The notes: generated by a model from the sequence alone, not told the origin. A stretch of DNA of 64,000 bases from an uncultured Candidatus Saccharibacteria bacterium (GCA_964574655.1 CAZNOH010000001.1:471020-535019); one strand, 5' to 3'. Shown: positions 3,158 through 63,502, counted from the stretch's first letter. Made by a program: numbers and translations.

Positions 3158-3197
3158 AGGTTTAATGTGGTTATTTGTTTAAAAACGTAAATTATAA

Positions 3198-3292: not shown

Positions 3293-3297
3293 GTATT

Positions 3298-48513: not shown

Positions 48514-48562
48514 TTTATTGTTCTTTTAAAAACTAAATCACAACCAGACAAGGAGGACAGAG

Positions 48563-50761
48563 ATGCAATCACAAATTGCTTTTTTGTTGCTTATTTTGTT
48601 GTTAGGATGTTCGAATAGCGATACCTCTTCATTTTCTGAAAAAGCAAAAGAATTATGCAGAGAAGAACATTGTGTAGCTGAAATTGCTGAATTTGAAAAT
48701 GATTTTTTACTTTCCCCTGCTAACATTGATTTGAAAGCTGAAGATTCTGATGGCAATATTGCTTCAACAAATACTTTGCTGGTTAAATTCAAGAGCAATA
48801 CTAGTGTCTCTGAAATTAAGAAAGCTCTTGATGAAATTGATGGCAAGGTCTCAGCATTTATTCCGGAAGTAAATATCTTTGAATTGAGATTTGACTGTGA
48901 TTCTATTGATCAGATTGAAAGAAATATTCAAACATTGCTTTCAAGCGGAATTGTTGAATTGGCGGAAATGAATTATGTAGCTCAACTGGAAGATTTGGAT
49001 ATTGGAAGCAATAATGATGATGGTTTGTGGGGATTTAAAAAAATCAGACTTGCAGAAGCTTACAATTTTATTGAACAAAATAGTATTGTTTTGCAACCGA
49101 TTAAGATCGCTGTTATTGATAGTGGTGTTAGATTAACGCATAGCGACTTAAAAGGGGTCTCTGTTGAAGAGTACGATTTGTTTGATAATGACAATGATGT
49201 TACTACTTTGGATGGACACGGTACAGCAGTTGCAGGCATAATTTTTGCTCAAAATCATAATGGCGATTTGAATGGCATTGCTTTTAACGCGACTTTGATG
49301 GCATACAAAATCACAAATAATTCTGGTAGCAATGAATATTTTGATCGAGATTCAATTGTTGCAATAATACACGCAGTACAACACAATGCTTCTGTCATTA
49401 ATATTAGTTCAAGAACTTCATCAGATAGTGAAACAGTTGAAGCACTCTATAGTGCAATTAGATTTGCATATGAAAATGGAGTGACTATTGTTGCTTCTGC
49501 GGGAAATGGTGAAGACGAATTGCTGTGTCGTGTTAATCAAAATCTTGATATCTGCTTTATTGGCGATGATGCAACCAACCATTATCCTTCAGCATTCTCT
49601 GAAGTTATCTCGGTTGGTGCTACCTATATTGATGAATTTGGACTTGAAAATAGAGCTCCTTGGTCTAATTACTCCCAAGATGATGATATAAATATTTTAG
49701 CTCTCTCTGCTCCGGCAAATAATATTACTGTCTTAACCTTAACAGATTTTGATCATAATAAAGGCACTTCTTTTGCTTCACCAATGGTTGCTGGTCTTGC
49801 TGGTTTATTAATATCTATTAGGCCAGAATTACGTCCTGATGAAGTTAGAAAAATTATGTATGAATCTGCTGTTGAAATTCTAGTTACCTATCCAGATGGC
49901 GTTTTTCATAACTGGAGAAGAATTAATGTATTGGAAGCTGTGAAGAAAGCAACTCATGAAATGGATCTGCCAAATCATGGAATTGGAAAAGATTGCTTTG
50001 AACTTAGTGATTGTAATTTTGGTTTGTATTGTGTCTCTGGAATTTGTACGGAATTTTGTTTTGAAGAGAAAAGTCGCGGCTTGGATTCAGGATTCAGTTG
50101 CGATAATTGCAATATGTTCAATGAATGTCCAAACGGAACTGCCTGTATTAAAATAAGAGATCCTCATGGTCCTTCGATCGGCAGAATACCGCTGAAATTG
50201 TGTTTTATATCATGCAAGAACGACAATGATTGCTACGATGGGCATATTTGTTGGCTAAATATCAATAGTTCAGGTGGTTTTTGTGTGCCAAAGCATTATG
50301 AAGATCTTTATAATGATGGAAGTACAGAAGGTGGAATTTGTGGCGATATCTTTGATGGTTATCTCCCAATAGGCTGTAAAGAAGGTGTTTGTAGTTTGCA
50401 TCTTGATATGATAAAGATCGGCTATTGCCGACGAGATTGTACTCCAAATGTTTCTGGTCATTCTTCATGTTATGAAAATGAATTCTGTGAATCAAATAAA
50501 TATTTTGATTATAATGGGATAAGAAAATGCGGTTTTTGCCAAGCAAGAAATTCTTTTCTACAAGTCAACGAAAATTGCATTTCTTCTACTGATTGTCCTC
50601 TCGGTACTACGTGCGTAACTTTATCTGATAGAAATGATTTTCGCTGTAAGATTCCTTGCGATTTTAATAACCCAAGCTGTCCTGAAGGATATTGGTGCAG
50701 CGAATATCTTTCAGACAGTAATGTCTGCCATGAATTAGGACTGGGTGCTTGTTCATTGTAA
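48563..50761 (+). CDS. subtilisin-like serine protease (peptidase S8) lipoprotein with about 270-aa Cys-rich C-terminal domain
   Basis: Signal/lipobox LLLGCSN. Catalytic triad contexts IAVIDSGV (Asp), DGHGTAVAG (His), GTSFASPMVAGLAG (Ser). About 30 Cys in the last 270 aa. SD CAAGGAGGACAGAGATG. Confidence 0.85.
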   Translation: MQSQIAFLLLILLLGCSNSDTSSFSEKAKELCREEHCVAEIAEFENDFLLSPANIDLKAEDSDGNIASTNTLLVKFKSNTSVSEIKKALDEIDGKVSAFIPEVNIFELRFDCDSIDQIERNIQTLLSSGIVELAEMNYVAQLEDLDIGSNNDDGLWGFKKIRLAEAYNFIEQNSIVLQPIKIAVIDSGVRLTHSDLKGVSVEEYDLFDNDNDVTTLDGHGTAVAGIIFAQNHNGDLNGIAFNATLMAYKITNNSGSNEYFDRDSIVAIIHAVQHNASVINISSRTSSDSETVEALYSAIRFAYENGVTIVASAGNGEDELLCRVNQNLDICFIGDDATNHYPSAFSEVISVGATYIDEFGLENRAPWSNYSQDDDINILALSAPANNITVLTLTDFDHNKGTSFASPMVAGLAGLLISIRPELRPDEVRKIMYESAVEILVTYPDGVFHNWRRINVLEAVKKATHEMDLPNHGIGKDCFELSDCNFGLYCVSGICTEFCFEEKSRGLDSGFSCDNCNMFNECPNGTACIKIRDPHGPSIGRIPLKLCFISCKNDNDCYDGHICWLNINSSGGFCVPKHYEDLYNDGSTEGGICGDIFDGYLPIGCKEGVCSLHLDMIKIGYCRRDCTPNVSGHSSCYENEFCESNKYFDYNGIRKCGFCQARNSFLQVNENCISSTDCPLGTTCVTLSDRNDFRCKIPCDFNNPSCPEGYWCSEYLSDSNVCHELGLGACSL

Positions 50762-50787
50762 CCGAGAATTTTCTCGGTTTTTTATTT
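50762..50787 (+). terminator. Rho-independent terminator
   Basis: ccgagaa-tttt-ctcgg followed by tttttt, directly after the protease stop. Confidence 0.7.
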
Positions 50788-50814
50788 GACAAAAGATATA
50801 TTTTGAAGTATACT
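50786..50814 (+). promoter_or_regulatory. sigma70-type promoter (-35 TTGACA, 17-nt spacer, -10 TATACT)
   Basis: ttgacaaaagatatattttgaagtatact read directly. Followed by the conserved leader TTGTTCTTTTAAAA and SD GAGGAGGAAGAGATG. Confidence 0.6.
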
Positions 50815-50898
50815 ATATTATTGTTCTTTTAAAATTTTTACTTGTCAACCAGCATCAAAGGTTGGCATCAGAAGTGAAAAACAGGAGAGGAGGAAGAG

Positions 50899-51735
50899 AT
50901 GAAACGGACAAAATTGCTTGCTTTGTCAGCTTTGATTTTTTTGGGACTTGCATCTTGTTCAAAACAAGAAATTGCTGTGGAACAAGTTCGCAAAGATGTT
51001 GAAATTTATTATCAACAACTTTTTGCAAAGTCATTCAGATATGTCTGCACACCGAATGTTTTTTCTGTTGATATTTTAGAAAGATGGACAAAAGATGACA
51101 AAACTGAATTGAAAGTCCGTACTGGTTTGAAATTGCAATGTAGATTAACATTGAATTCTGAAGTTAATGGCGATTTTATGACTTCGCGAATTGAAAGTTC
51201 TTCAAATTTGAAAGTTGGATCCAATTTCTTCCAAGATTGTTTCAAAATGCAATATGAGAAATTCAGCGAAGGATTCAAACTGCAAGGAGAGTTTAATCAG
51301 GATGAAAATTGTCCGTCGTCTGAAGTTTTTGATGCCTATAAAAGGTTGGCTCTAGAAAATCTGCTGAAAGAAACTGCTTTGGCGGCGTGCACTTGCAAAC
51401 AGCCAAATTCTAATTGTACGCATGAAGAAAATATTTGTCGAATTTATGAAGAAAGAGATATCAATGGCGATGGAATTGCGGAAATGGTTTTATCTGATGC
51501 GATAAATCCGAGAAATGGAATTGATTTCGGTTCCACTTGGGCAATTATTAATGGAAGTCCTAAAATGATTTTGCCGGCTACTATTTCTTTGAAAGATTTG
51601 CCAGTATCAGATGGCTTTCCAAGTATTAAAACTTCTGACGAAATAGGTTGCTGCTTAGAAATCATTACCACATATCAATTTGATGTTAGACGAGGAGAAT
51701 ATGTCAAGGTTGGCACTTTTGAACGGAAGATATAA
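50899..51735 (+). CDS. lipoprotein (hypothetical), tandem paralog 1
   Basis: Lipobox LGLASC. Shares LLKETALAACTCK, ERDINGDG and other blocks with the next gene. Confidence 0.7.
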   Translation: MKRTKLLALSALIFLGLASCSKQEIAVEQVRKDVEIYYQQLFAKSFRYVCTPNVFSVDILERWTKDDKTELKVRTGLKLQCRLTLNSEVNGDFMTSRIESSSNLKVGSNFFQDCFKMQYEKFSEGFKLQGEFNQDENCPSSEVFDAYKRLALENLLKETALAACTCKQPNSNCTHEENICRIYEERDINGDGIAEMVLSDAINPRNGIDFGSTWAIINGSPKMILPATISLKDLPVSDGFPSIKTSDEIGCCLEIITTYQFDVRRGEYVKVGTFERKI

Positions 51736-51739
51736 AAAT

Positions 51740-51768
51740 TTACCGAAAGTTATCTTTCGGTTTTTTTA
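51740..51768 (+). terminator. Rho-independent terminator (copy 1 of a duplicated element)
   Basis: accgaaag-ttat-ctttcggt followed by ttttttt. An identical hairpin recurs at 52961. Confidence 0.75.
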
Positions 51769-51769
51769 T

Positions 51770-51798
51770 TTGACAAAAAATATAATTTAGAGTATACT
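51770..51798 (+). promoter_or_regulatory. sigma70-type promoter (-35 TTGACA, 17-nt spacer, -10 TATACT)
   Basis: ttgacaaaaaatataatttagagtatact. The conserved TTGTTCTTTTACA leader is 7 nt downstream. SD GAGGAGGAAGGAAGATG. Confidence 0.6.
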
Positions 51799-51863
51799 AT
51801 AATATTGTTCTTTTACATTTTTACTCCCAAATATATAGGCCAGACAACAGAGGAGGAAGGAAG

Positions 51864-52697
51864 ATGACAACGAGACTGATGTTTTTGTGTGTACTTTTCG
51901 CTACTCTCTTTCTTGCGTCATGCAAAAAAGAAGTCAAGGAAGGACAAGTTCGACAAGATGTTGATCAGTTTTATATTTCTATGACCAGACAACATTCTAG
52001 TGGAAATTTGAATTGCAGTTTTTCCATTTCTGATGTCAGCGAGATTGAAAAACTTAGCCGTGATGAAAAAGTTGAGTTAAAAGTAAGACTTGTTGTAACA
52101 AAAAATTGCGTTCGCAAAGAAAACCTTAGTATTTCCCAAACCATTGCCGGCACATTTGATGATAATATGGCCAATCGCGAACCAGGAATTTTTGTATATC
52201 AGGAATGTTTGTCATTGTCTTATGAAATTTTTGATAACGGCTTTAAACTGCGAAATACTTCTATCGATGATAGCTGTCCAGAATCAGCAGACTTCAAAGC
52301 TAGTCAAAAAACTAGGCTTGATACTTTACTGAAAGAAACTGCTTTGGCGGCGTGCACATGCAAGCATGAAAAATGCGAGCCTGGGATGATGGAAGATGCC
52401 TGTGGCATAAAAGCTGAAAGAGATTTAAATGGCGATGGCTTAGTTGAAATTTTGGTGGGCGATACCTGTGGCGGAAATGCTTATATTTGTGGCTTCAGAT
52501 TATGGTCATTGCTCAATGGATTGCCAACTATTATTTTTGAGGATACGAATCTTACAGACCTGCAGGAAATTAAAGCAAATTCAAATGGTAAATTTCCTGT
52601 AATTGAATCAACAGATATTTCATATGATGAAAAATTTTTCTATTTGTATGGTTTCTCTGAAAAGTCAAAATTATACCAACTCATAAAAAAAGGATAG
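51864..52697 (+). CDS. lipoprotein (hypothetical), tandem paralog 2
   Basis: Lipobox LFLASC. LLKETALAACTCK identical to paralog 1. ERDLNGDGLVEILVGD. Confidence 0.7.
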   Translation: MTTRLMFLCVLFATLFLASCKKEVKEGQVRQDVDQFYISMTRQHSSGNLNCSFSISDVSEIEKLSRDEKVELKVRLVVTKNCVRKENLSISQTIAGTFDDNMANREPGIFVYQECLSLSYEIFDNGFKLRNTSIDDSCPESADFKASQKTRLDTLLKETALAACTCKHEKCEPGMMEDACGIKAERDLNGDGLVEILVGDTCGGNAYICGFRLWSLLNGLPTIIFEDTNLTDLQEIKANSNGKFPVIESTDISYDEKFFYLYGFSEKSKLYQLIKKG

Positions 52698-52702
52698 AAA
52701 AA

Positions 52703-52954
52703 ATAAGGACAATTCAATTCAATGGCTTACCTGTCGGGGTAGACATTTATGTTGATGGCAAATTTGCTGGCGTGGCAAAACCTTGTTCTTCTGAGCCTAA
52801 CAATGGCTGTCTGAATGCAGATGTTAAGCAGACTAAAGCAAGAATTGTGATTAAAAAAGCTGGATATAAAACTTCAATTACGGATTGGGATTGGAATATG
52901 CTAGGCAGAATTAATGAAGGAGGTTGGTTTAGCTATTTATTAGAAAAAGAGTAA
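52703..52954 (+). pseudogene. PEGA-like domain coding fragment with no in-frame ATG (the ORF track calls a GTG at 52772). Possible remnant or frameshifted C-terminal extension of the upstream lipoprotein
   Basis: Open frame from 52661. IRTIQFNGLPVGVDIYVDGKFAGVAKP...ARIVIKKAGYKTSITDWDW is a recognisable PEGA/carboxypeptidase-regulatory-like beta-sandwich motif. The only start candidates are GTG 52772 (mid-domain) or non-canonical codons. Confidence 0.3.
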
Positions 52955-52958
52955 AAAT

Positions 52959-52986
52959 TTACCGAAAGTTATCTTTCGGTTTTTAT
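52959..52986 (+). terminator. Rho-independent terminator (copy 2 of the duplicated element)
   Basis: aaatttaccgaaagttatctttcggttttt, identical to 51735-51765. Confidence 0.75.
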
Positions 52987-53038
52987 TTTGCAAAAAATAT
53001 GCTATACTTTAATTTCTAATAAGTAATTTTTAAAAAGC

Positions 53039-53704
53039 ATGAAGAAAATTTTATGCGTTGTAATGGCAATGTGTTTCCTTGTTTCATTGTCATTTGCATT
53101 AAACGCATCAGCAAAAAATGTTAAAAAGAACAAGCCATTAAATGTGACAGTTGATTCATCTGTGCAGGTTCCGGAAAATTTGAAAGTGCTGGATAGAAGA
53201 TCGACAACTAGCCATGTCATTTGGGACGAGGTAGAAGAAGCAGATAAATATGAATTGAGAATTGCTGATAATAATGAGATTGTTTTGGGTTATCTTAGGT
53301 CAAATATTAATTATAAAACTGTTTCTAGTAAATGGTTGGTTTCTAACAAAACTTATAAAATTGCTGTCAGGACAATAAATGGAGCTTTGGCTAGCGAATG
53401 GAGCTCGTATGTTTCTTTCAGGACTAAACCAGCAAAAGTGAAAAATGTTTTAGTCACGAGCATAACTGAAAATTCAGCTGTTGTTTCTTGGAATGCTTGC
53501 AGAGGTTCAAATTTAAAATATCTTGTAAAATTAACTGATGGAAGCAACGAATTAATATCAACTAATTATGTAGCTGGCAGAACTCTAACATTGTCAGGAT
53601 TATCATCAAATACTGCCTACAAAGTTAAAGTACAAGCTCAAAACATCACTAAAAATTCTGATAAAGGCGCTTTGTCTGAAGAAGTTTTATTTGAAACGCT
53701 TTAA
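53039..53704 (+). CDS. secreted protein with two fibronectin type III-like domains
   Basis: Signal peptide MKKILCVVMAMCFLVSLSFALNASA. Two about 90-aa units with the FN3 pattern (PxNLKVLDRRSTTSHVIWDEV...YELRI...Y.I.VRT.N and PAKVKNVLVTSITENSAVVSWNA...YLVKL...AYKVKVQAQN). Confidence 0.7.
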   Translation: MKKILCVVMAMCFLVSLSFALNASAKNVKKNKPLNVTVDSSVQVPENLKVLDRRSTTSHVIWDEVEEADKYELRIADNNEIVLGYLRSNINYKTVSSKWLVSNKTYKIAVRTINGALASEWSSYVSFRTKPAKVKNVLVTSITENSAVVSWNACRGSNLKYLVKLTDGSNELISTNYVAGRTLTLSGLSSNTAYKVKVQAQNITKNSDKGALSEEVLFETL

Positions 53705-53721
53705 ATTAATAATAATTTAAA

Positions 53722-53753
53722 TAAAAAAGCCGAAGAATTTTCTTCGGTTTTTG
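53722..53753. terminator. bidirectional Rho-independent terminator between convergent genes
   Basis: aaaaaagccgaaga-attt-tcttcggttttt. Confidence 0.7.
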
Positions 53754-53772
53754 ATTGAGCAAAAATAGAACA

Positions 53773-54768
53773 TTATTTTTTTTCTAATGCAATTGAAACC
53801 TTTACTGCTGTGCTAAGTGTTTGATCTTCCGGATAAATTGCGATAACCTTAGTTGGGTCAAACAGATAAGCAAGATTGGAGCACTTGGTACATTTTTCTT
53901 GACCGGTTGTCCAATAAAATCCGATATTAATTTTTCTTGCATTCGGTTGCTGGCTCAAAGATGTCAAATAGCTTGCTGTTGCAAGCGCTGTTTTGAATTC
54001 AATAATTCTAATAAGAAATGAACCGTATTCATATTCATAGGCCTTCTTGAATCCCTTGATCTGCTTAGAATAATCGCTACTAGTTCTGGCTTCTTTTAGA
54101 ACGTTGCCTAAAATATTTCCAGGAATTAACAGCTTTTCAGATGACTTAATCTTGGAAATTGATGGCCTTTTTTCTACATCATCTTCTTCAACTTGAATTA
54201 GCGAATCGTCCTCAGATTGACTTGACCTCGGCTTTGATTTTGCTGTTGGCTTTTCATCTGATTCTGAATCGTCAGGATTAATACATTGATTTCGACGATT
54301 AACGAAACAAATAGCTGTGCCGGTTGCCTTGGTGTGCATTCGTTGTGCATTAACATCAACTTTTCCGCCTCGTGCATAGTATTCTACTGATGTTGAGTAA
54401 CGGACATTGATTATTGCACCTAGAATTGAACCATATTGATCATAAGCACGATCGAGCATAAGCCTTGTTGCTTGCTGGTAGTCTGGTTTCAAATCATCAG
54501 GTGGCGCTTCAAGAATATAGCTTTTTTTGTGTACTTTTGTGTCGCCATACTTTTTAAAATTTCTTTCATAGCTTTTTAATTCTGGTGTTGATCTTTTGGA
54601 AAAGTAGGAAGGAACACCTGTTGCTTCTACTTTTCCTAAAACCTTATATTGCCGGCCAGGATTGCCAGATGTATAGGCTTTGATTCTTTCAGGTGACCAA
54701 ATCAGCATTCGACCGCATGACGACAAAAAAATTGACAACAGAATAATAACGATGGCTTGTTGCCTCAT
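53773..54768 (-). CDS. lipoprotein (hypothetical) with acidic/Ser-rich central linker
   Basis: Lipobox IFLSSCG. SD CAAGGAGGCAGGGAAATG on the minus strand. Confidence 0.65.
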   Translation of the reverse strand: MRQQAIVIILLSIFLSSCGRMLIWSPERIKAYTSGNPGRQYKVLGKVEATGVPSYFSKRSTPELKSYERNFKKYGDTKVHKKSYILEAPPDDLKPDYQQATRLMLDRAYDQYGSILGAIINVRYSTSVEYYARGGKVDVNAQRMHTKATGTAICFVNRRNQCINPDDSESDEKPTAKSKPRSSQSEDDSLIQVEEDDVEKRPSISKIKSSEKLLIPGNILGNVLKEARTSSDYSKQIKGFKKAYEYEYGSFLIRIIEFKTALATASYLTSLSQQPNARKINIGFYWTTGQEKCTKCSNLAYLFDPTKVIAIYPEDQTLSTAVKVSIALEKK

Positions 54769-54853
54769 TTCCCTGCCTCCTTGTTCCCTTTCTTTGTGTA
54801 AGGTGCGAGTAATAATATAATACTTTAAAAATTGATGATTGTCAAGTTAAATT

Positions 54854-54882
54854 TGACAAAAATTATTTATTATCTTATATTA
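54854..54882 (+). promoter_or_regulatory. candidate sigma70-type promoter in divergent intergenic region (-35 TTGACA, -10 TATATT)
   Basis: atttgacaaaaattatttattatcttatatta. The TGTTCTTTTAAAA leader motif is at 54906. SD GAGGAGGAAGGAATG. Confidence 0.45.
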
Positions 54883-54949
54883 TATAGTTGCATTATGTTT
54901 GTAATGTTCTTTTAAAATTTAATTTCCCGCGAGAAAAGAGGAGGAAGGA

Positions 54950-56335
54950 ATGAAAGACAATGCCAGAAAGTTTTCTTTGGCAATTTTTGTGGCGATTTTG
55001 GTTTGTTTTTTGATGCCTTTTTTGGATTTGTCGTGCGGAGAACAAAAAATTGTCAACTTAACTGGATTGGAACTTATTACTGGAAAAACAATTGCAGATT
55101 CAAGTATTTACGGCGTGGAAAATAATCATACTCATCCGCATCTGTTGGTTATTTTAGCTTCTTTATGCTCAATTGCAGGTTTTGTTTTTGTTTATGTGAA
55201 GGGCAAATCAAGGCTTATTTCTTCGGCATTAAGCTTGCTGGGATTTGTTTTTTTACTGAAGTTTAAAATTCTGATGGATGGCAATATTGCTGAAAAAGGC
55301 GATGGCATGATTTTTGCTGACTGGCGATATGGTTTTTGGTTGGCATGCGTTCTATTTATCTTGGCATCTGTTATTTGCTTGGTTGCTTATTATCGGGAAA
55401 AAAGTAAGACAGTTGTTTCTGGCACGATGATTAGTTGTTTTGCTGTTTTTTTTGTTGCTTTGATAGGATATAACTGCAATTCGAATAAAACACCATCTTT
55501 TAGAGAATTAGCGAAATCTGACGCTTCTTGGGATTTACATCCTATTTGGCATCCACAGAAAAACATTGTTATTTTTGAACGCTGGGATGAGAATATTGGC
55601 TGGAATACTTACCAATTGAACATGAATGATTTTGCTATTGCCAGATTTAAGCCTGCAAGCAACTTTGATGATTATAATAGCATTGATTGGTTTTCTGATG
55701 GCAATAGTTTTGTCTTTTGGACTGGCGGAAATGTGAATGCGCCTCCTAAAATTTGGCGTTATGATTCGAATAATCAGGTTTCTGAATTAGCTGACAATGC
55801 TGCTCATCCGTGCTGGATTAATAATTATAAAAGCATTATTTATATGGACACGCAACGCGGTGATTCGATTTGGCTGATGGATGGCAATGGCAATAATAAA
55901 CGCCTTCTAATTAAACCAGGTTCCGCTCCTGATTGCATGGCAGACGGCGAATGGTTTGTTTATAATTCAAGACCGTCAAGAGATGATTTTAGAGGAAATA
56001 TTTATGCTTTTAACATTGCCAGCCAACAGATGATTTCTATCACAAATAGTGATAATGCCAAAAGTGCCAGTTTTTCTTTTGATGGTAAAAAAGTAGTCTA
56101 TGTTAGAATTGTTCTTCCAGAAAAATATGATAGAGATAAAGAAGTAATAATTGAGAGCAGTAAATACCAAATAGTTGTTGTTGATTTTCCAAGCCTAGAA
56201 AATGAAAGAGTCATTTTTGAGAGTTTGGGTATTGTTGAGTGCACTCCAACGATATCTCCTAATAGTAAGCACTTGGCATGGTGCCATAGCGAAGGGGGGC
56301 GTAAATTTAGTCACATACGATTTCTTGAACTTTGA
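54950..56335 (+). CDS. membrane-anchored TolB-like beta-propeller protein
   Basis: Four N-terminal TM helices (about 180 aa), then a WD40/PD40-like repeat pattern (SIDWFSDGNSFVFW, SIIYMDTQRGDSIWLMDGNG, NIYAFNIASQQ, FSFDGKKVVYV). Confidence 0.6.
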   Translation: MKDNARKFSLAIFVAILVCFLMPFLDLSCGEQKIVNLTGLELITGKTIADSSIYGVENNHTHPHLLVILASLCSIAGFVFVYVKGKSRLISSALSLLGFVFLLKFKILMDGNIAEKGDGMIFADWRYGFWLACVLFILASVICLVAYYREKSKTVVSGTMISCFAVFFVALIGYNCNSNKTPSFRELAKSDASWDLHPIWHPQKNIVIFERWDENIGWNTYQLNMNDFAIARFKPASNFDDYNSIDWFSDGNSFVFWTGGNVNAPPKIWRYDSNNQVSELADNAAHPCWINNYKSIIYMDTQRGDSIWLMDGNGNNKRLLIKPGSAPDCMADGEWFVYNSRPSRDDFRGNIYAFNIASQQMISITNSDNAKSASFSFDGKKVVYVRIVLPEKYDRDKEVIIESSKYQIVVVDFPSLENERVIFESLGIVECTPTISPNSKHLAWCHSEGGRKFSHIRFLEL

Positions 56336-56945: not shown

Positions 56946-57704
56946 ATGAGACAAAAAAGATTTTTGGTGTTGTCGCTTGTTTTAGGAAGCGCGTTGTTGA
57001 TAACAACAGCTTTTGCAAGTGCAACATCCGTATGGACAACTGATTCTATGCTAGTAAAGAAAGTAGCAACAGTTGGAACAAATAGCAATAAAGGACAATT
57101 GCTAGTAAAAGGTTTTATCAGAAATCCTGTCAAAGGCAAAAAAGTTTATGTAAAAGATCATTTGAAAGTTCAAGGCAATGTTCAAGTTGGCGGAATTTTG
57201 CAAGGAAACAATATTGTAAGTGCTGACAATCTTGGAACTGGTGTTGTAACTGAAACAAAATTGGGAACTGGCGCGGTAACTGCTGATAAATTAGGAACAG
57301 GCGCTGTAACAACTGATAAATTAGGAACAGGCGCGGTATCTTCTGCAAAAATTGCTGATGACGCTGTAAATGCTGATAAATTAGATTTTTCGATTGATGG
57401 CGTGGTAAAGGCGGCGGCGTATGGAACACAAGCAACTTGCAATAGTACTGCTTTGGCAAGATCTTTTAATAAGTTGGCTTCTAGTAGCGCAACTTGTTCA
57501 CGTACAAGTACTGGTATTTATACTGTAAATTTTAACACGACTATAAGTAGTAGATTTTTTCAGGTTACGCCGTTACACACTTCAGATATTTATCCGGTCA
57601 TTAACTCTTTACCTTCTAGCACAATAGAAATTTATTTTTATGATGCTGCTGGGGCTACTGCCGACTTAACTGATCCAACTGGATTTTATATAACTGTTTA
57701 TTAA
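56946..57704 (+). CDS. secreted surface protein, paralog of 18015..18548, with an inserted KLGTGAVTxD repeat array
   Basis: MRQKRFLVLSLVLGSALLITTAFASATSVWTTDSMLVKKVATVGTNSNKGQLLVKGFIRNPVKGKKV aligns to the 18015 gene. Four tandem (K/N)LGTG(A/V)VT(A/T/E)(D/T) units. Shared C-terminal GFYITVY. Confidence 0.7.
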   Translation: MRQKRFLVLSLVLGSALLITTAFASATSVWTTDSMLVKKVATVGTNSNKGQLLVKGFIRNPVKGKKVYVKDHLKVQGNVQVGGILQGNNIVSADNLGTGVVTETKLGTGAVTADKLGTGAVTTDKLGTGAVSSAKIADDAVNADKLDFSIDGVVKAAAYGTQATCNSTALARSFNKLASSSATCSRTSTGIYTVNFNTTISSRFFQVTPLHTSDIYPVINSLPSSTIEIYFYDAAGATADLTDPTGFYITVY

Positions 57705-57836: not shown

Positions 57837-60686
57837 CTAGCGTCTCATGATTTCAAAGTAGTGCTGGATTTCAGCGTCGGAAAGTGCCTTGTTGAAGAAG
57901 GAAAATTCGTCGATGGTCATATCGCTTTTTTGACCACCAACGTTCTGTGCACCTAAAAGCATTGCATTTCCAATAATATTTACATACGGGCCATTCCAAA
58001 TGGGCACGCCATCATTATAGACTGTGAAATTTCCGTTTTGATATTTTGCGGCAAACGCGTACAGTTGATTAGCGTTAACGTTTACCATTTGTGCAAATCG
58101 TTCCTGTGACAAATAAAATGTCCACTTAAATCCGTCATCTGTCGAAAGTATCCCGAGTCCAGGCATTCTGTTACGTGAGAAAATCATGTCTCCTGTTTCA
58201 TACGTTCGTACTTTAACAGACACGAAGTATGTGAACTCATTCGCAATGCTGTCCATACTCACACTATCAGCCACCTCGGCGTAGTCGTCAACTCCGTCGA
58301 ACGATGCAGCCTGGCCACAAACTGCATCCGCAGTGAAAGTGGCGCCGTGGTTGACAGCATTGTTGGCATTTGGCGAACCATCATTGAAGTGGTTGTCAAA
58401 CGACAGGTACATGACCAACGACCGGCAGTCTTCATCAACAGCGCCATCGCAGTCATTGTCAACCTGATCGCAGATTTCCACTCCGCAGTTGGTAACCGTA
58501 CATTCACAGCCATCAGTAGGATTAGCATTCACATCGAAGCGGAAGCGGTTGCACTGCAACACGCACTGTCCTGCTACACAACGCGAGCTAGAAGTCCCCT
58601 GATTTCCGCAAACGCGATTGCATTGGCCACAGTTCAATGGATCAACCAAGAGGTCGAAGCCATTGTCTGCAGTACCATCACAATCGTTGTCCAGGCCATC
58701 ACAGATTTCAGCAACTGATGTGATCTGATTCTGGCATTCTCCCCACTCACGGCTCTCCCAGCAGATCTGCGTTCCGATCTGGCATTCGCCGACATCGGTA
58801 CCGCAGTTGCGAGAAACACCTGGTGAGCAACAGCCAATCAGATTTTCGTCAGTTTCAGAATTGCAATTGTTATCCAGACCATCGCAGATTTCATCAGACG
58901 GTCCAGTTGCACCTTCGCACCAGCCCCAAGAGCGGTTGGCCTGGCAAGTGGAAGTTCCCTTCTCACATTCGCCAGTGTCAATTCCGCAATAGGAAAGATC
59001 ACGAGGTTCGCAACAACCTTCCAAATCTTCATCAGTCGAATCGTCGCAATCGTTGTCCAAGCCATCGCAGATTTCATCTGTCGACGGATTGGCAATTGCG
59101 TTGCAACTACTGGTCTGGTCATTAACACATGCAATCACGCCTTCGGCATAACATTCGCCAACGCCGTTAGAGCAAAAATTGCGAGTGTTAAAACCTTCAT
59201 CAGTGTTGTGATCGCAATTGTTATCAAGGCTATCGCAGATTTCGTTGCTCGACTGAACCTCGCCTTCACAGGCAAGCCAGACGCCAGCGAAACAAGACTG
59301 CACGCCCTTCTGACACTCACCGACATCATTGCCACATTCCTGCGTCAATGCTTCGTCGGTTGCGCCATCGCAATCATTGTCCTTGTTGTCGCAAAGCTCG
59401 TCGTGAGACAGGCCAGCAACAGCATTGCAGAACGTTGACTGCTGATCAATGCCACATACCAACTGACCAAGCGACAAGCACGCGCCTACGCCGATCTGGC
59501 ACTCTGCGCCAAGATTGACATAAGCTTCATCAGTGTTGCCGTCGCAGTTGTTATCTTTGGCATCGCATAGTTCAGCCGTGGGCTTCACTTCGTCAGTGCA
59601 TTCACTCCACACACCATCTTGCGAGCAAGTCTTGCGACCCTTTTGGCATTCGCCAACATTGGAGCCACATACGACCTGATCATTTGCATTGCAACATCCA
59701 ACCAAATCCTCATCAGTTGCGCCATCGCAGTCATTGTCCTGCTGGTCGCAAGCTTCTTCGGTTGGCTGAATGGTCTGTGCATTGCAAGTTGCTGAAAGCT
59801 TGTCATCACTGCAAACATAAACACCGCGCGAAATACAGAGACCTTGACCGATCTGGCAGGCACTTTCAAGGTTTACGAAATCCTCGTCAGTGTTACCGTC
59901 ACAGTCATTGTCCAACAAGTCGCAAAGATCTGCAGATGGGTCAACAGCATTTTCACACTGGCCCCAACTACCGTCTTCTTGACAAGTCATTTGACCCTTC
60001 TGGCATTCCCCGACATCATTGCCACATTCCTGAACATCGTTTTGATCGCAACAGCCAACCAATTCTTCATCGATTGTGCCATCGCAATCGTTATCCAGTT
60101 CATCACACTCTTCAGGAATTGCCTGACCAGCGACTGCATTGCAAGTCGTAGTGTTGCCGTCAGCGCTACAAACGTAGACGCCTTCTGCAAAACATTCGCC
60201 CTTGCCAACATTGCAGACCTGATTTAGGTTGTCGAAACCTTCATCAGTCTGATTGTCGCAGTCGTTGTCCTTGCCATCGCAGATTTCAGTGGACGGAATA
60301 CAAGGAATGTCAGCACCTGTATCAGGAGTCGTGTCTGGCTCACTGTCAGGCGAAACATCTTTGCCACCACCTGAGTCTACATCTGGAGTTCCAACTTCAG
60401 CATCAGCTTCGGGGCCAACTTCAGCGTCTGCTTCAGCATCAGGCCCTGCATCAAAGCAATTGGTGCATACGGCCTTGCAAACTGTGTCCTTGTCGGCGTG
60501 AAGCATTTCATCGTTGAGTTCGTTGCTTTCAACACAGATCTTTTTCTCATTCAAGCAAACACAAGTGAACTTTTCAGTACAAAGCGCATTTTCATCACAG
60601 AGATTCTTTTTGTCCATGTCGTCAAAACTCTGCAAACATCCAGAAATTGCCAACGCAAAAAACATAGCCAGCGTTCTCGTTGTCAT
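57837..60686 (-). CDS. lipoprotein with about 12 MopE-like 'CDGxDNDCDGxTDE' Cys-rich repeats and a C-terminal LamG/concanavalin-A-like domain
   Basis: Lipobox ALAISGC. Alternating repeat types (…DNDCDGxTDEgF.NL…C..G.G.C…G..VC and …DNDCDGxxDE.L.GCC…CG..VGECQKG..TC). C-terminal FDGVDDYAEV…KWTFY…NGNFTVYNDG matches the Laminin_G_3 pattern. GC about 50-53% against about 28% for the glycan locus. SD GAGGAGGAAGGAAAATG. Confidence 0.85.
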   Translation of the reverse strand: MTTRTLAMFFALAISGCLQSFDDMDKKNLCDENALCTEKFTCVCLNEKKICVESNELNDEMLHADKDTVCKAVCTNCFDAGPDAEADAEVGPEADAEVGTPDVDSGGGKDVSPDSEPDTTPDTGADIPCIPSTEICDGKDNDCDNQTDEGFDNLNQVCNVGKGECFAEGVYVCSADGNTTTCNAVAGQAIPEECDELDNDCDGTIDEELVGCCDQNDVQECGNDVGECQKGQMTCQEDGSWGQCENAVDPSADLCDLLDNDCDGNTDEDFVNLESACQIGQGLCISRGVYVCSDDKLSATCNAQTIQPTEEACDQQDNDCDGATDEDLVGCCNANDQVVCGSNVGECQKGRKTCSQDGVWSECTDEVKPTAELCDAKDNNCDGNTDEAYVNLGAECQIGVGACLSLGQLVCGIDQQSTFCNAVAGLSHDELCDNKDNDCDGATDEALTQECGNDVGECQKGVQSCFAGVWLACEGEVQSSNEICDSLDNNCDHNTDEGFNTRNFCSNGVGECYAEGVIACVNDQTSSCNAIANPSTDEICDGLDNDCDDSTDEDLEGCCEPRDLSYCGIDTGECEKGTSTCQANRSWGWCEGATGPSDEICDGLDNNCNSETDENLIGCCSPGVSRNCGTDVGECQIGTQICWESREWGECQNQITSVAEICDGLDNDCDGTADNGFDLLVDPLNCGQCNRVCGNQGTSSSRCVAGQCVLQCNRFRFDVNANPTDGCECTVTNCGVEICDQVDNDCDGAVDEDCRSLVMYLSFDNHFNDGSPNANNAVNHGATFTADAVCGQAASFDGVDDYAEVADSVSMDSIANEFTYFVSVKVRTYETGDMIFSRNRMPGLGILSTDDGFKWTFYLSQERFAQMVNVNANQLYAFAAKYQNGNFTVYNDGVPIWNGPYVNIIGNAMLLGAQNVGGQKSDMTIDEFSFFNKALSDAEIQHYFEIMRR

Positions 60687-60795
60687 TTTCCTTCCTCCTC
60701 TTGATGTAAGGTTCGGTCTGTTCAGCCGAATCCTTGGGTTTTCAGTTCAAATTATAGTAGCATATACATAAAATTTTGGCAAGAGAAAATTGTTT

Positions 60796-60824
60796 ATTAT
60801 GGCTTTTTTGACTATTTTTGTCAA
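60796..60824 (-). promoter_or_regulatory. candidate promoter (minus strand -35 TTGACA, 17-nt spacer, -10 CATAAT)
   Basis: Minus-strand reading ttgacaaaaatagtcaaaaaagccataat. Confidence 0.45.
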
Positions 60825-60833
60825 TTTTTTGCA

Positions 60834-60856
60834 TAAAAAAAAGACTCTAAGAGTCT
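60834..60856 (-). terminator. Rho-independent terminator for the minus-strand C-type lectin gene
   Basis: Minus-strand agactc-tta-gagtct followed by tttttttt. Confidence 0.65.
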
Positions 60857-60862
60857 AAATGA

Positions 60863-62146
60863 TTAAAAAAGTTCGTTCCATTCACAGAAAAAAGGACGAG
60901 TCAAGCCGCAGAAAGCATCATTCCAACCGCCATTTGGTGGCAAGTCAATGCGAATTTCTACGCAATCTTCACCGCTTGCGCCAATAGCTTGAGAGTTATT
61001 TGGTTCTCCAGAAGCCCATTCAAGGACATCTGAAATTTCGCCAGATTCCCAGACCCAGGTATTTTCTTGCGCAATATCGTTTAAACCGATCCAGGCGGAA
61101 AAATAGCCTAATTGCAAGGTGTAAAAATATCCGTCTTCAAGCAAATCATTTATTGTAGCAAGATGACTGTTAAATCTTCGGCAATATTGAACTGCTTCAA
61201 TCCAAACAAGCTCTTGGTTGCAATAAGCATAAGTATGATTTTGATATTCCATAATTTGGCAATTCATATCTAAGCATTGGCCTTCTAGACAGATGCCTTG
61301 AGGCTGGCAGGGATTATTTTCATCTGTCTCCCCATCGCAATCATTATCTAGTCCATCGCAAATTTCATCAGTTTTCAGCCATAATTTTTCTTCTGCATCA
61401 CAATTTGAAAGCAAATCACCATCGCAAGCAATCTGGCCTAGAGCTCTACAAACTCCATTTCCAATTTCACAATATTCGCCAATTAGAAAACCGTCATCAA
61501 TTTCTTCATCGCAGTCATTATCTAAGCCATCACAAATATCATGTTCTGGATTCTTGCTATTACATTCTGACCATGTGCCAAAGGCTAAACATGTTTGTCT
61601 GCCAAGTCTGCATTCACCAATATTGCTGTTTCCGCAAATTCTCGTCTCGGTTACTATGCAACAATCTTCAAGATTTTCATCAGTCTCGCCATCACAATCG
61701 TTGTCTAGGCTATCACAGACTTCATCTGTTTTTAGCCAAGACCTTTCTTCAGCATTACAAAACGAATATTCATGAGTCTCACAGAAAAAATGGCCAGTTC
61801 CCGTACAAACTCCTTTTCCATTTTCACAATGTTCGCCTACTTTGAAATTTTCATCAATCTCGCCATCACAATCGTTGTCTTGATTATCACAAATTTCTTT
61901 GACACATTCTATGTTGTTTTCTGTATCTGGTTCATCAGTTTTTTCATCGTTATCGTCCTGATTTCTTGAATCTTCTCGGATTAATACCTCTGGTTGAATT
62001 AATTTTTCACAAATTCCAGAAATACAATAATAGCCATCAACGCAGTCAAAAATTTCAGAGCATTGATTTTTTGCTTCTAATCCTGTTGAATCAAAACTGC
62101 ATCCGCATGCCAAAATCGCTAGACAAAGACATGTTGCTCGTTGCAT
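60863..62146 (-). CDS. lipoprotein with 4 MopE-like Cys-rich repeats and a C-terminal canonical C-type lectin carbohydrate-recognition domain
   Basis: Signal peptide MQRATCLCLAILACGCS. Repeats CDNQDNDCDGEIDE, CDSLDNDCDGETDE, CDGLDNDCDEEIDD, CDGLDNDCDGETDE. CTLD hallmarks YCRRFNSHLATI, WIGLND, WVWESGE, WASGEPNN, EDCVEI, GGWNDAFC, FFCE. Confidence 0.85.
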   Translation of the reverse strand: MQRATCLCLAILACGCSFDSTGLEAKNQCSEIFDCVDGYYCISGICEKLIQPEVLIREDSRNQDDNDEKTDEPDTENNIECVKEICDNQDNDCDGEIDENFKVGEHCENGKGVCTGTGHFFCETHEYSFCNAEERSWLKTDEVCDSLDNDCDGETDENLEDCCIVTETRICGNSNIGECRLGRQTCLAFGTWSECNSKNPEHDICDGLDNDCDEEIDDGFLIGEYCEIGNGVCRALGQIACDGDLLSNCDAEEKLWLKTDEICDGLDNDCDGETDENNPCQPQGICLEGQCLDMNCQIMEYQNHTYAYCNQELVWIEAVQYCRRFNSHLATINDLLEDGYFYTLQLGYFSAWIGLNDIAQENTWVWESGEISDVLEWASGEPNNSQAIGASGEDCVEIRIDLPPNGGWNDAFCGLTRPFFCEWNELF

Positions 62147-62193
62147 TTGTGTCTCCTTGTTTTGAGTGTGCAGGCATTCATTTACCGCTTTAT

Positions 62194-62227: not shown

Positions 62228-62253
62228 TAAAAAAAACGCCATAAATAGCGTTT
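62228..62253 (-). terminator. weak Rho-independent terminator overlapping the stop of the 62252 gene
   Basis: Minus-strand aaacgc-tatttatg-gcgttt followed by tttttt. The stem is only 6 bp. Confidence 0.4.
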
Positions 62254-63346: not shown

Positions 63347-63502
63347 CCTTCCCTCCATTGTCCGCCAAAGCTAAGCTACGGCGGGCTGTCTTCTGTGTCG
63401 GAGCACTGTTTTGGCTTCATATTAGTGTAACAAAAGATTATCCACTTGTCAAGTTTCACTATTTGATATTTTTCCTGTATAATATAATATGTATTTTAAT
63501 AT

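What the first reader, a model, noticed from the sequence alone, without database searches (positions are those of the whole stretch)
50762..54950. Repeated terminator-promoter-leader module with an unusually long GAGGAGGAAGG Shine-Dalgarno, confined to secreted-protein genes
Upstream of the genes at 48563, 50899, 51864 and 54950 there is a recurring block. It has a hairpin terminator (the 30-nt aaatttaccgaaagttatctttcggttttt is duplicated verbatim at 51735 and 52946). Then comes TTGACA-17nt-TATACT, then a conserved leader motif (A)TTGTTCTTTTA(A/C)A(A/T)TT about 7 nt after the -10. Last is a purine-rich SD (CAAGGAGGACAGAGATG, GAGGAGGAAGAGATG, GAGGAGGAAGGAAGATG, GAGGAGGAAGGAATG). The same SD is used by the GC-rich 57837 gene and the 53773 lipoprotein. 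Glycan-locus genes mostly have no discernible SD. This looks like a dedicated high-expression or co-regulated regulon for envelope and secreted proteins. The conserved leader motif may be a regulator or sRNA target.
Basis: seen in the sequence. Interest (0 to 1): 0.55.

Follow-up and report, generated by a model that had tools for sequence, protein, structure and literature searches.

The report
Strong ribosome-binding sites only on envelope genes
In a tiny-genome Patescibacteria (CPR) bacterium whose sampled genes otherwise lack Shine-Dalgarno sites, a cluster of exported envelope genes, mostly lipoproteins, keeps very strong ones, and three neighbouring gene families share a short conserved leader box; related genomes show the same pattern, which points to a gene-class-specific way of starting translation.

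Summary
The sequence features are real, but the block is less uniform than described. Only 50899 and 51864 carry the full terminator, TTGACA-17-TATACT promoter, box and SD module. They are tandem paralogues. 54950 carries a copy of the same promoter and leader with a 16-nt insertion. 48563 has only the box and the SD.

The box (ATTGTTCTTTTAAAA, core GTTCYTT) occurs 4 times against 0.74 expected. It always lies in the sense-strand 5' leader of a strong-SD gene. It is conserved upstream of the subtilase and lipoprotein orthologues in 4-5 related Patescibacteria genomes.

The larger result concerns the SD. Eight of 51 window genes have a canonical strong SD (-8.3 to -16.5 kcal/mol, 5-7 nt spacing). 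All eight are exported envelope proteins and six are lipoproteins. The other 43 genes have none, and neither do metK and the sugar-nucleotide genes of relatives. Orthologues keep this split.

The best reading is ordinary expression signals, a duplicated cassette, a class-specific SD, and a leader box bound by an unknown sequence-specific factor. Tests for cis anti-SD pairing, a uORF and Rfam families were negative. The genome-wide extent and the 16S tail could not be checked.

The parts
48517..48531 (+). Leader box U1 (ATTGTTCTTTTAAAA) in the 49-nt gap between the decarboxylase stop and the subtilase start
   Evidence: The box is conserved in the subtilase leaders of L089, L090 and L087/L091.
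48550..48562 (+). SD AAGGAGGACAGAG of the subtilase lipoprotein gene 48563-50761
   Evidence: -12.5 kcal/mol. Pfam Peptidase_S8. Lipobox LLGC.
50760..50785 (+). Intrinsic terminator of the subtilase gene
   Evidence: 8-bp stem, 4 GC pairs, T tail. A homologous hairpin is present in L084 and L087.
50786..50814 (+). Sigma-70-type promoter TTGACA-17-TATACT of 50899
   Evidence: 11 of 12 positions. The -35 and -10 elements are invariant in alignment A1.
50820..50834 (+). Leader box U2 (ATTGTTCTTTTAAAA), starting 6 nt after the -10 hexamer
50887..50898 (+). SD GAGGAGGAAGAG of lipoprotein gene 50899-51735
   Evidence: -16.4 kcal/mol. Lipobox LASC.
51736..51765 (+). Intrinsic terminator, verbatim copy 1
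51770..51798 (+). Promoter TTGACA-17-TATACT of 51864
   Evidence: The 61-nt repeat D3 is 89% identical to the 50778 copy.
51804..51818 (+). Leader box U3 (ATTGTTCTTTTACAT)
51850..51863 (+). SD GAGGAGGAAGGAAG of lipoprotein gene 51864-52697. The gene is frameshifted, and its C-terminal domain continues in another frame to 52954.
52955..52984 (+). Intrinsic terminator, verbatim copy 2. It is followed by the SD-less fn3 gene 53039.
   Evidence: D6
54853..54881 (+). Promoter TTGACA-17-TATATT of 54950, a copy of the lipoprotein-type promoter
   Evidence: (D1)
54903..54917 (+). Leader box U4 (AATGTTCTTTTAAAA), 22 nt after the -10 hexamer
54938..54949 (+). SD GAGGAGGAAGGA of 54950-56335, a membrane protein with a TolB-like propeller
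54769..54782 (-). SD AAGGAGGCAGGGAA of the CsgG-like lipoprotein gene 53773-54768. There is no box. The leader carries a different conserved element, GCACCTTACA.
60687..60700 (-). SD GAGGAGGAAGGAAA of the GC-rich MopE/LamG lipoprotein gene 57837-60686. There is no box. The leader has a conserved 5' hairpin.
62147..62158 (-). SD AAGGAGACACAA of the MopE/C-type-lectin lipoprotein gene 60863-62146
63347..63358 (-). SD (AT)GGAGGGAAGG of the exported protein gene 62252-63346. The true start is the ATG at 63346.
   Evidence: The orthologue keeps AGGAGGGAGAGAG.

Best explanation
SHOWN
1. The block is the normal set of expression signals of a conserved cluster of exported cell-envelope genes in a Patescibacteria genome. 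In order, these are the intrinsic terminator of the upstream gene, a sigma-70-type promoter, a 40-80-nt 5' leader, and a canonical but unusually strong, purine-rich SD 5-7 nt from the ATG.
2. The near-verbatim repeats come from duplication of a promoter-leader(-terminator) cassette. There was a tandem duplication of the lipoprotein gene (50899 and 51864). A third copy of the promoter and leader, with a 16-nt insertion, drives the lineage-specific gene 54950.
3. All other genes sampled here and in relatives have G-depleted, A/U-rich, SD-less start regions. The strong SD is kept in orthologues of exactly the envelope genes. It therefore behaves as a gene-class-specific translation signal.
4. The 14-16-nt box (core GTTCYTT plus an A-rich tail) is under purifying selection in two gene families across 4-5 genomes. 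It always lies on the sense strand, between the -10 hexamer and the SD.

INFERRED
5. The box is a recognition site for a sequence-specific trans-acting factor: a protein, or an RNA, acting on the leader DNA or RNA just downstream of the transcription start. This factor would co-regulate the neighbouring subtilase, lipoprotein and 54950 genes.
6. The SD works through ordinary pairing with the 16S 3' tail, which must therefore be intact in this lineage.
For: SD split:
- Duplex energies against CACCUCCUUUCU are bimodal. Eight of 51 window genes score -8.3 kcal/mol or lower, and the other 43 score -5.7 or higher.
- All eight strong-SD genes have an N-terminal signal or anchor sequence, and six have a lipobox.
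- The same split holds in L084/L212 and L087/L214, where metK, ugd, rmlA and others are SD-less.
- GGAGG lies 5-7 nt from the ATG in all eight genes.
- SD-less start regions are G-depleted and A-rich.

Box:
- Four copies against 0.74 expected.
- It is present in the orthologous subtilase leaders of L089, L090 and L087/L091. It is present in the lipoprotein-family leaders of L084, L087 and L089, as variants GTTCTTTT, GTTCTTTTT and GTTCCTT. The flanking leader sequence has diverged.
- Leader identity is 68-85%, against 64-73% for coding DNA and 37-60% for protein.

Duplication: repeat families D1, D3, D6 and D9, the alignment of the four leaders, and the absence of 54950 from L084 and L087.

Promoters and terminators.

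Sequence-specific recognition rather than structure: the core is invariant without covariation, and the leader folds are not significant (z = -1.5 to +1.35).
Against: - No regulator, sRNA or 16S sequence was available, so the trans-factor and the SD/anti-SD pairing are inferred.
- The box is not palindromic, and its distance from the promoter varies (6, about 17 and 22 nt). That is unusual for a classical operator.
- It was found in only three adjacent gene families, so shared ancestry inflates its apparent recurrence.
- Four of the eight strong-SD genes lack it.
- The subtilase leader of L084 lacks it, and that of L003 has only a loose variant.
- Only about 100 kb of genomes of about 650 kb was examined, all from one syntenic region. 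The statement that the genome is SD-poor apart from envelope genes is therefore an extrapolation.
- All strong-SD genes sit in one 15-kb cluster, which confounds gene class with location.
Confidence: 0.55

Rival explanations
1. Cis anti-SD element, similar to a fourU thermometer or an attenuator. The U/C-rich box (UUCUUUU) would pair with the purine-rich SD (GGAGGAA) in the same leader. This would occlude the ribosome-binding site until the pairing is melted or displaced.
For: - The box is always in cis with a strong SD (4 of 4 in the window, about 10 of 10 in relatives).
- Box-SD duplexes of -6.4 to -8.9 kcal/mol rank in the top 1-5% of background 12-mers in 9 of 11 leaders.
- The MFE fold of the 48563 leader pairs UGUUCUUUU with AGGAGGACA.
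Against: - Leader folds are not more stable than shuffles (z = -0.97, -1.51, +1.35, -0.54).
- SD opening energy exceeds shuffled-leader controls in only 1 of 8 genes, at the 5% level.
- Cognate box-SD pairs are no better than non-cognate pairs (-6.9 against -6.65 kcal/mol), so there is no covariation.
- MFE partners differ between leaders.
- Any pyrimidine run would pair with this SD.
Confidence: 0.12
2. Translational enhancer or standby site. The unstructured U-rich box would recruit 30S subunits, for example through bS1, upstream of the SD. It would resemble AU-rich leader enhancers or the T7 gene 10 epsilon sequence, which pairs with another part of 16S rRNA.
For: - The box lies in the transcribed leader, 19-55 nt upstream of the SD, on the sense strand only.
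- Its U-rich composition and its likeness to epsilon (UUAACUUUA) come from my own knowledge, not from a test here.
Against: - bS1-type enhancers are not sequence-specific, yet the GTTC core is invariant in a genome where AU-rich sequence is everywhere.
- SD-less genes, which would need such an enhancer most, lack the box.
- The 16S sequence needed to test complementarity was unavailable.
Confidence: 0.12
3. The box has no function of its own. It recurs because one promoter-leader cassette was duplicated or gene-converted among adjacent surface-protein genes, as with the conserved 5' cassettes of Mycoplasma variable lipoprotein families. It has simply not yet diverged.
For: - The 50899, 51864 and 54950 leaders are clearly homologous over about 110 nt.
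- The genes are adjacent.
- The terminator is duplicated verbatim.
Against: - The paralogous proteins are only 35-37% identical, while the box is identical.
- The box survives in subtilase and lipoprotein leaders of genomes whose proteins are 46-60% identical, while the surrounding leader sequence has randomised.
- The subtilase leader shares only the box and the SD with the lipoprotein leaders.
Confidence: 0.1
4. The SD split is an artefact of origin. Under this reading, the 48.5-63.4 kb segment is a horizontally acquired island, or an assembly chimera, from an SD-using organism.
For: The segment has higher GC (0.34-0.50 against about 0.29). All strong-SD genes are contiguous.
Against: - SD-less genes (53039, 56429, 56946 and the gene starting near 63.5 kb) are interspersed and stay SD-less in relatives.
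- The junction with the glycan locus and the gene order recur in independent assemblies from JGI, NCBI and Logan.
- The promoters match those of SD-less neighbours.
- The proteins have homologues only in this lineage.
Confidence: 0.05

Closest known systems
Bacteroidia 'SD-blind' ribosomes with a single strong-SD gene (rpsU), translated by ribosomes that lack bS21 (PMC9976891, PMC13000453, PMC7797042)
   Same: The genome is otherwise SD-poor, with A-rich, G-depleted start regions. A very small set of genes carries exceptionally strong, extended SDs (down to -16.5 kcal/mol here, below -13 kcal/mol there). These SDs are conserved across related genomes.
   Different: - The marked genes here are exported envelope proteins, mostly lipoproteins, not a ribosomal protein.
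- There are several such genes rather than one.
- The phylum is different (Patescibacteria).
- Anti-SD sequestration, bS21 status and the rpsU leader could not be examined.
Reported absence of the anti-SD motif in about half of Parcubacteria 16S rRNAs (PMC9297842)
   Same: It concerns the same superphylum and is consistent with widespread SD-independent initiation in CPR bacteria.
   Different: Here GGAGG is conserved at canonical spacing upstream of orthologous genes in at least 4 genomes. That argues the anti-SD is present and used in this lineage. The paper does not describe class-specific SD use.
Conserved 5' expression cassettes of Mycoplasma variable surface lipoprotein families (vsp, vlp, vsa); from my own knowledge
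   Same: A small, AT-rich, SD-poor genome in which neighbouring surface lipoprotein genes share a near-identical promoter and 5' leader, while their coding regions diverge quickly.
   Different: - The signal-peptide coding region is not part of the conserved cassette.
- No phase-variable homopolymer or invertible element was found in the promoters.
- The box is also kept in a non-homologous gene, the subtilase.
FourU / ROSE RNA thermometers and other cis anti-SD leaders; from my own knowledge
   Same: A U-rich stretch upstream of the SD that can pair with AGGA/GGAGG through G-U pairs.
   Different: No stable or conserved hairpin was found. SD accessibility is no lower than in shuffled leaders, and there is no covariation.

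Membership tests
Canonical Shine-Dalgarno site | Complementarity to the 3' tail of 16S rRNA | tested here: inconclusive
   Scores are -8.3 to -16.5 kcal/mol against a generic tail, CACCUCCUUUCU. The organism's own 16S is not in the window or in any fetched locus.
Canonical Shine-Dalgarno site | Core positioned about 5-9 nt upstream of the start codon | tested here: met
   GGAG(G) lies 5-7 nt from the ATG in all 8 genes.
Canonical Shine-Dalgarno site | Conserved in orthologues | tested here: met
   Orthologues of the subtilase, the lipoprotein family, the CsgG-like gene, the MopE/LamG gene and 62252 keep GGAGG in L084/L212 and L087/L214. The subtilase, lipoprotein-family and CsgG-like orthologues also keep it in L089, and the subtilase orthologues in L090 and L003.
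Bacteroidia-type selective-SD system (specialised ribosomes) | Genome-wide paucity of SDs, with A-rich, G-poor start regions | tested here: inconclusive
   This holds for 43 of 51 window genes and for all non-envelope genes in about 40 kb of relatives. Only one syntenic region per genome was sampled, and it contains no ribosomal or tuf genes.
Bacteroidia-type selective-SD system (specialised ribosomes) | Anti-SD sequestered by bS21, bS18 and bS6, and a strong SD on rpsU or rpsR | not testable with these tools
   The rest of the genome could not be retrieved.
Cis anti-SD leader / RNA thermometer | Stable hairpin that occludes the SD | tested here: not met
   Fold z-scores range from -1.5 to +1.35. 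SD opening energy is not above shuffled controls in 7 of 8 genes.
Cis anti-SD leader / RNA thermometer | Compensatory changes between the two arms | tested here: not met
   Cognate and non-cognate duplex energies are -6.9 and -6.65 kcal/mol.
Upstream ORF / leader peptide | Conserved start, frame and stop | tested here: not met
   TTG/ATG-TTC-TTT-TAA is readable in 5 of 11 leaders. The T-run length (3-5) shifts the frame in the others.
Intrinsic terminator | GC-containing hairpin followed by a T tract, downstream of a stop codon | tested here: met
   stems at 50760-50779, 51742-51761 and 52961-52980, each with 8 bp including 4 GC pairs, followed by a T tail.
Sigma-70-type promoter | TTGACA and TATAAT-like hexamers with a 17-nt spacer; mapped transcription start | tested here: inconclusive
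   Three sites match 11 of 12 consensus positions and are conserved in relatives. No transcript 5' ends are available. 48563 has no convincing promoter.
Any Rfam RNA family | Covariance-model match | tested here: not met
   No match reaches the gathering score in the window or in 7 related loci. At E <= 5, only chance-level matches to unrelated families appear.
Mycoplasma-type variable lipoprotein cassette | Conserved 5' cassette that includes the signal peptide, plus a phase-variable switch | tested here: not met
   The promoter and leader are shared, but the signal-peptide DNA is not. No homopolymer or inverted-repeat switch was seen in the promoters.

The most novel reading that the evidence does not exclude
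In this Patescibacteria lineage, SD/anti-SD pairing is no longer the general start signal. It would instead be retained as a dedicated channel for cell-surface proteins, mostly lipoproteins. Those mRNAs would be translated only when, or by ribosomes in which, the 16S 3' tail is available. This would be a multi-gene envelope counterpart of the bS21/rpsU specialised-ribosome circuit of Bacteroidia, with the GTTCYTT leader box as an added control site for a subset of the genes.
Probability: 0.2. Interest if true: 0.8.

Novelty: new variant of a known kind. Interest (0 to 1): 0.55.

Why it matters
If the split holds genome-wide, it would be the first case I know of in which an SD-poor bacterium reserves strong SDs for a functional class of proteins, its surface lipoproteins. 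These are the molecules that matter most in an episymbiotic CPR cell. It would extend the idea that the SD acts as a regulatory signal rather than a general one beyond Bacteroidia. It would show that the anti-SD is functional in at least some Parcubacteria-like lineages. It would also give a sequence-only way to flag surface proteins in CPR genomes, most of which have no annotation. The leader box is a candidate cis-regulatory element in a group where almost no regulation is known.

Tried and rejected
1. Retrieving the rest of the genome.
- Exact-protein look-ups gave only short Logan contigs.
- The single genome-contig scan, with the decarboxylase as query, did not contain this genome. It gave one useful syntenic relative, L003.
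- As a result, no genome-wide motif or SD census and no 16S sequence could be obtained.

2. Metagenome scan with TGTTCTTTTAAAAWN{10,40}AGGAGG.
Almost all were chance matches in unrelated contigs with no excess of exported proteins.
- Only L153, a known relative, belongs to the family.

3. An early reading of gene 1919-3157 as EF-Tu was wrong. It is CysN, and its neighbour is CysD. I make no claim about tuf.

4. Cis anti-SD pairing was tested in three ways and not supported.

5. The mini-ORF hidden in the box (TTG/ATG TTC TTT TAA) was rejected, because the frame is not conserved.

6. Reading the box as an alternative promoter was rejected. I tried TTGTTC as a -35 element and TAAAAT as a -10 element. 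No consistent partner hexamer sits at the right spacing in the different leaders.

7. By-eye comparison with known operator consensus sequences (CodY, LexA/Cheo, WalR, PhoP, Rex; all recalled from memory) gave no match.

8. Rfam gave nothing. A passing likeness to preQ1-I (GUUC ... AAAAACUAA) was not supported by the covariance-model scan.

9. The family of protein 50899 has no detectable homologues apart from itself in the large protein search, so it could not be used to find distant loci.

Full report
WHAT IS THERE

The window is AT-rich, about 29-31% GC up to 48 kb and 33-50% beyond. Exact-sequence look-up places its proteins on a 654,272-bp NCBI contig. The 90%-identity cluster of the decarboxylase also contains a protein named 'MAG... 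[Patescibacteria group bacterium]', from a 645,164-bp contig.

Positions 1-47 kb hold cysDN and a large glycan-synthesis locus. Positions 48.5-63.4 kb hold a cluster of exported proteins:
- a subtilase lipoprotein (48563);
- two paralogous lipoproteins (50899 and 51864, 35% identical);
- an fn3 protein (53039);
- a CsgG-like lipoprotein (53773, - strand; its L089 orthologue hits PF03783);
- a membrane protein with a TolB-like propeller (54950);
- two Cys-rich MopE-repeat lipoproteins, one with a LamG domain and one with a C-type lectin domain (57837 and 60863);
- a signal-peptide protein (62252).

CHECKING THE OBSERVATION

The 10-mer TGTTCTTTTA occurs exactly four times. All copies are on the + strand, at 48519, 50822, 51806 and 54905. 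The expectation is 0.74, and none of 100 shuffles reaches four. Each copy lies in the leader of one of the four named genes.

GAGGAGGAAG occurs at 50887, 51850, 54938 and, on the - strand, 60691. The expectation is 0.97.

The consensus scan finds TTGACA-17-TATACT at 50786 and 51770 and TTGACA-17-TATATT at 54853. It finds clean intrinsic terminators at 50760, 51742 and 52961.

The 30-nt terminator is duplicated verbatim at 51736-51765 and 52955-52984.

The block is less uniform than described:
- 48563 follows the decarboxylase stop by 49 nt and has neither a terminator nor a TTGACA promoter.
- 54950 sits in a divergent promoter region without a terminator, and its box lies 22 nt after the -10 hexamer.
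- Only 50899 and 51864 have the complete module.

REPEAT ANATOMY

The repeat families show a 61-nt promoter-plus-box copy at 89% identity and a 49-nt terminator copy at 88% (D3 and D6). A third, 73%-identical promoter copy lies upstream of 54950 (D1).

An alignment of the four leaders shows that the 54950 leader is the lipoprotein-type promoter and leader with a 16-nt insertion between the -10 hexamer and the box. Its SD block, AGAGGAGGAAGGAA, is identical to that of 51864.

The gene 54950 is absent from the syntenic position in relatives. Part of the recurrence is therefore plain duplication and transplantation of a promoter-leader cassette of about 110 nt. The subtilase leader shares only the box and the SD.

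COMPARATIVE EVIDENCE

The genome itself could not be retrieved. Subtilase orthologues of 46-59% identity led to syntenic loci from independent assemblies:
- L084/L212, from the 645-kb JGI/NCBI contig;
- L087/L214 and L091;
- L090;
- L089;
- L003, which came from the genome scan.

The box is present in these subtilase leaders:
- L089: ATTGTTCTTTTAAAAT, 17 nt after TTGTCA-17-TATAAT;
- L090: ATTTGTTCTTTAAAAT;
- L087/L091: ATGTTCTTTAAAAAT.

L003 has a loose variant (TCGTTCCTTACAAA). L084 has no box.

In the lipoprotein family the box is present in all three relatives:
- L084: ATTGTTCTTTTAAAATTTTACTCCC. The JGI start call is wrong here. The true ATG is at L084:11725 and follows GAGAGAGGAGGAGGAAAAAG.
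- L087: TTGTTCTTTTTACATTTTTACTTCC.
- L089: ATTCGTTCCTTGAAAATTTACTC.

In the alignment of the five lipoprotein-family leaders, the -35 element, the -10 element, the box and the following TTT-ACT are invariant or nearly so. Sequence between ACT and the SD is not conserved. Leaders are 68-85% identical, against 64-73% for coding DNA and 37-60% for protein.

The box is therefore under selection, with core GTTCYTT. It was seen only in these three gene families. Relaxed matches elsewhere in about 170 kb of related sequence fall inside coding regions and lack the A-rich tail and the SD.

THE SD SPLIT

This result matters more than the box.

Against a generic 16S tail, the SD pairing energies of the 51 window genes fall into two groups. 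Eight genes score -8.3 to -16.4 kcal/mol. The other 43 score -5.7 or weaker, and most are above -3. Many start codons are anchored by conserved N-termini, such as the Rossmann motifs [14 protein letters not shown] and [14 protein letters not shown]. The absence of an SD is therefore not a start-call artefact.

The SD-less start regions are strongly G-depleted (G of 0-0.14 at positions -1 to -12, against 0.16 overall). They are A-rich, with an A-rich second codon.

The eight SD genes are exactly 48563, 50899, 51864, 53773, 54950, 57837, 60863 and 62252. The last uses the start at 63346. All have an N-terminal signal or anchor sequence, six have a lipobox, and GGAG(G) lies 5-7 nt from the ATG. 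Among 51 genes, eight of the eleven with a cleavable-type signal have an SD and none of the other forty does. A hypergeometric calculation of my own gives p of about 3e-7, but the genes are contiguous and so not independent.

Three signal-peptide genes (53039, 56946, 18015) and the cytoplasmic 56429 are SD-less, even though some lie between SD genes.

The split is evolutionarily stable. In L084/L212 and L087/L214 the orthologues of the SD genes keep strong SDs (-10.9 to -16.5 kcal/mol). The orthologues of the SD-less genes stay SD-less; the fn3 leader ...AAGTAATTTTTAAAAAGCATG is conserved. About 25 further genes have no SD, including metK, ugd, rmlA, epimerase genes and NUDIX/HD genes.

TESTING MECHANISMS FOR THE BOX

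1. Cis anti-SD.
- The box is complementary to its SD region, at -6.4 to -8.9 kcal/mol. That is the top 1-5% of background 12-mers in 9 of 11 leaders.
- However, leader folds are not more stable than shuffles.
- The energy needed to open the SD exceeds shuffled-leader controls only for 50899, at the 5% level.
- Cognate box-SD pairs are no better than non-cognate ones.
- The complementarity is what any pyrimidine run would show against a purine-rich SD.

2. Upstream ORF. The box can be read as TTG/ATG-TTC-TTT-TAA, but the variable T-run breaks the frame in 6 of 11 leaders.

3. Known RNA families. There are no Rfam matches.

4. Alternative promoter. No consistent partner hexamer was found.

What remains is an invariant, non-palindromic, sense-strand element lying between the -10 hexamer and the SD. 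Its distances are fixed within a family and variable between families: 6, about 17 and 22 nt from the -10 hexamer, and 19-55 nt from the SD. The simplest account is a recognition site for a sequence-specific trans-factor acting on leader DNA or RNA. I cannot tell protein from RNA, nor DNA level from RNA level.

COMPARISON WITH KNOWN SYSTEMS

The closest described system is in the Bacteroidia. Their ribosomes sequester the anti-SD and genes are SD-less. One gene, rpsU, keeps an exceptionally strong SD (below -13 kcal/mol) and is translated preferentially by ribosomes that lack bS21 (PMC9976891, PMC13000453, PMC7797042).

For CPR bacteria, the anti-SD motif was reported as detected in only 48% of Parcubacteria 16S sequences (PMC9297842).

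The present case resembles the Bacteroidia in having an SD-poor background plus a few very strong, conserved SDs. It differs in that the marked genes are several envelope proteins, mostly lipoproteins. The conserved GGAGG at canonical spacing implies, by inference, that the anti-SD is intact and used in this lineage. Literature searches that combined Shine-Dalgarno with Patescibacteria, CPR, lipoproteins and signal peptides returned no description of such a pattern. That is a limited search, not proof of novelty.

LIMITS

All evidence comes from one syntenic region of about 64 kb, plus about 40 kb in each of two relatives. No ribosomal or tuf genes, no 16S and no transcript data were available. 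The metagenome pattern scan was truncated and uninformative. Gene class and chromosomal location are confounded.

VERDICT

The regulon interpretation is only partly supported. This is a new variant of the selective-SD theme and can be tested directly once the full genome is in hand.

Noticed in passing
window 52680-52954: Lipoprotein gene 51864 ends at a TAG just after an A7 run (CTCATAAAAAAAGGATAG). Its C-terminal 85 or so residues (KIRTIQFNGLPVGVDIYVDGKFAG...DWDWNMLGRINEGGWFSYLLEKE) continue in another frame up to the terminator. Orthologues are single ORFs of 364-367 aa. This is a 1-nt homopolymer frameshift, and it could be a real truncation, phase variation, or an assembly error.
   Followed up: partly
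window 54847-56335; L084 12914-14577; L087 13643-15392: Gene 54950 (N-terminal membrane segments plus a TolB-like propeller) is absent from the syntenic position in both long relatives. Its promoter and leader are a copy of the lipoprotein-family cassette with a 16-nt insertion. The cassette appears to have been re-used to drive a newly inserted gene.
   Followed up: partly
window 57837-62146 (- strand): Two Cys-rich lipoproteins are built from MopE-type repeats, one with a LamG domain and one with a C-type lectin domain. GC reaches 0.50 in a genome of about 0.30 GC. The 57837 leader carries a conserved 5' hairpin (AAGGxUUCGG...CCGAACCUU) in three genomes.
   Followed up: partly
window 53000-53041; L087 12870-12914; L089 3610-3651: The SD-less fn3 gene has a highly conserved short leader (..AAGTAATTTTTAAAAAGC/ACATG) in three genomes. 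SD-less start regions in this lineage are therefore also under sequence constraint.
   Followed up: no
window-wide, positions -25 to +9 of 35 SD-less genes: Start regions are strongly G-depleted (G of 0-0.14 at positions -1 to -12) and A-rich. The second codon is A-rich (A is 60-66% at positions +4 to +6). This resembles the SD-independent start regions described for Bacteroidia.
   Followed up: partly
window 54786-54812 (- strand); L087, L084 and L089 orthologous leaders: The CsgG-like lipoprotein leader carries its own conserved element, G(C/T)ACC(T/C)T(A/G)(C/G), about 9 nt after the -10 hexamer. A similar CCTTACA occurs in the 57837 leader and in the L003 subtilase leader. It may be a second leader motif of strong-SD genes.
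   Followed up: no
window 1919-4101 (- strand): cysN (TIGR02034, above its cut-off) and cysD sit next to the 45-kb glycan locus. This suggests sulfate activation for a sulfated surface glycan. L087 has a sulfatase-domain glycosyltransferase in its glycan locus.
   Followed up: no
window 18015-18548 (-) and 56946-57704 (+): These are two paralogous secreted proteins with nearly identical signal peptides (..LSLVLGxxLLxxTAFASAxSxW). One lies inside the glycan locus and one in the envelope cluster. Both are SD-less.
   Followed up: no
L084 11662 and 18774; L087 19404: The public gene calls in relatives start at upstream ATG, TTG or GTG codons and miss the true SD-preceded ATGs, for example L084:11725. 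Gene callers trained on the SD-less majority appear to mis-start the SD-bearing minority.
   Followed up: partly
L092-L171 (metagenome hits): Among unrelated metagenome hits where AGGAGG is followed by a real ORF, 8 of 25 have the TGTTCTTTTAAAAW string only 10-13 nt upstream of the SD, against about 3 expected. Several follow a -10 hexamer closely. This may be chance, or a common AU-rich leader layout in other small-genome bacteria.
   Followed up: partly
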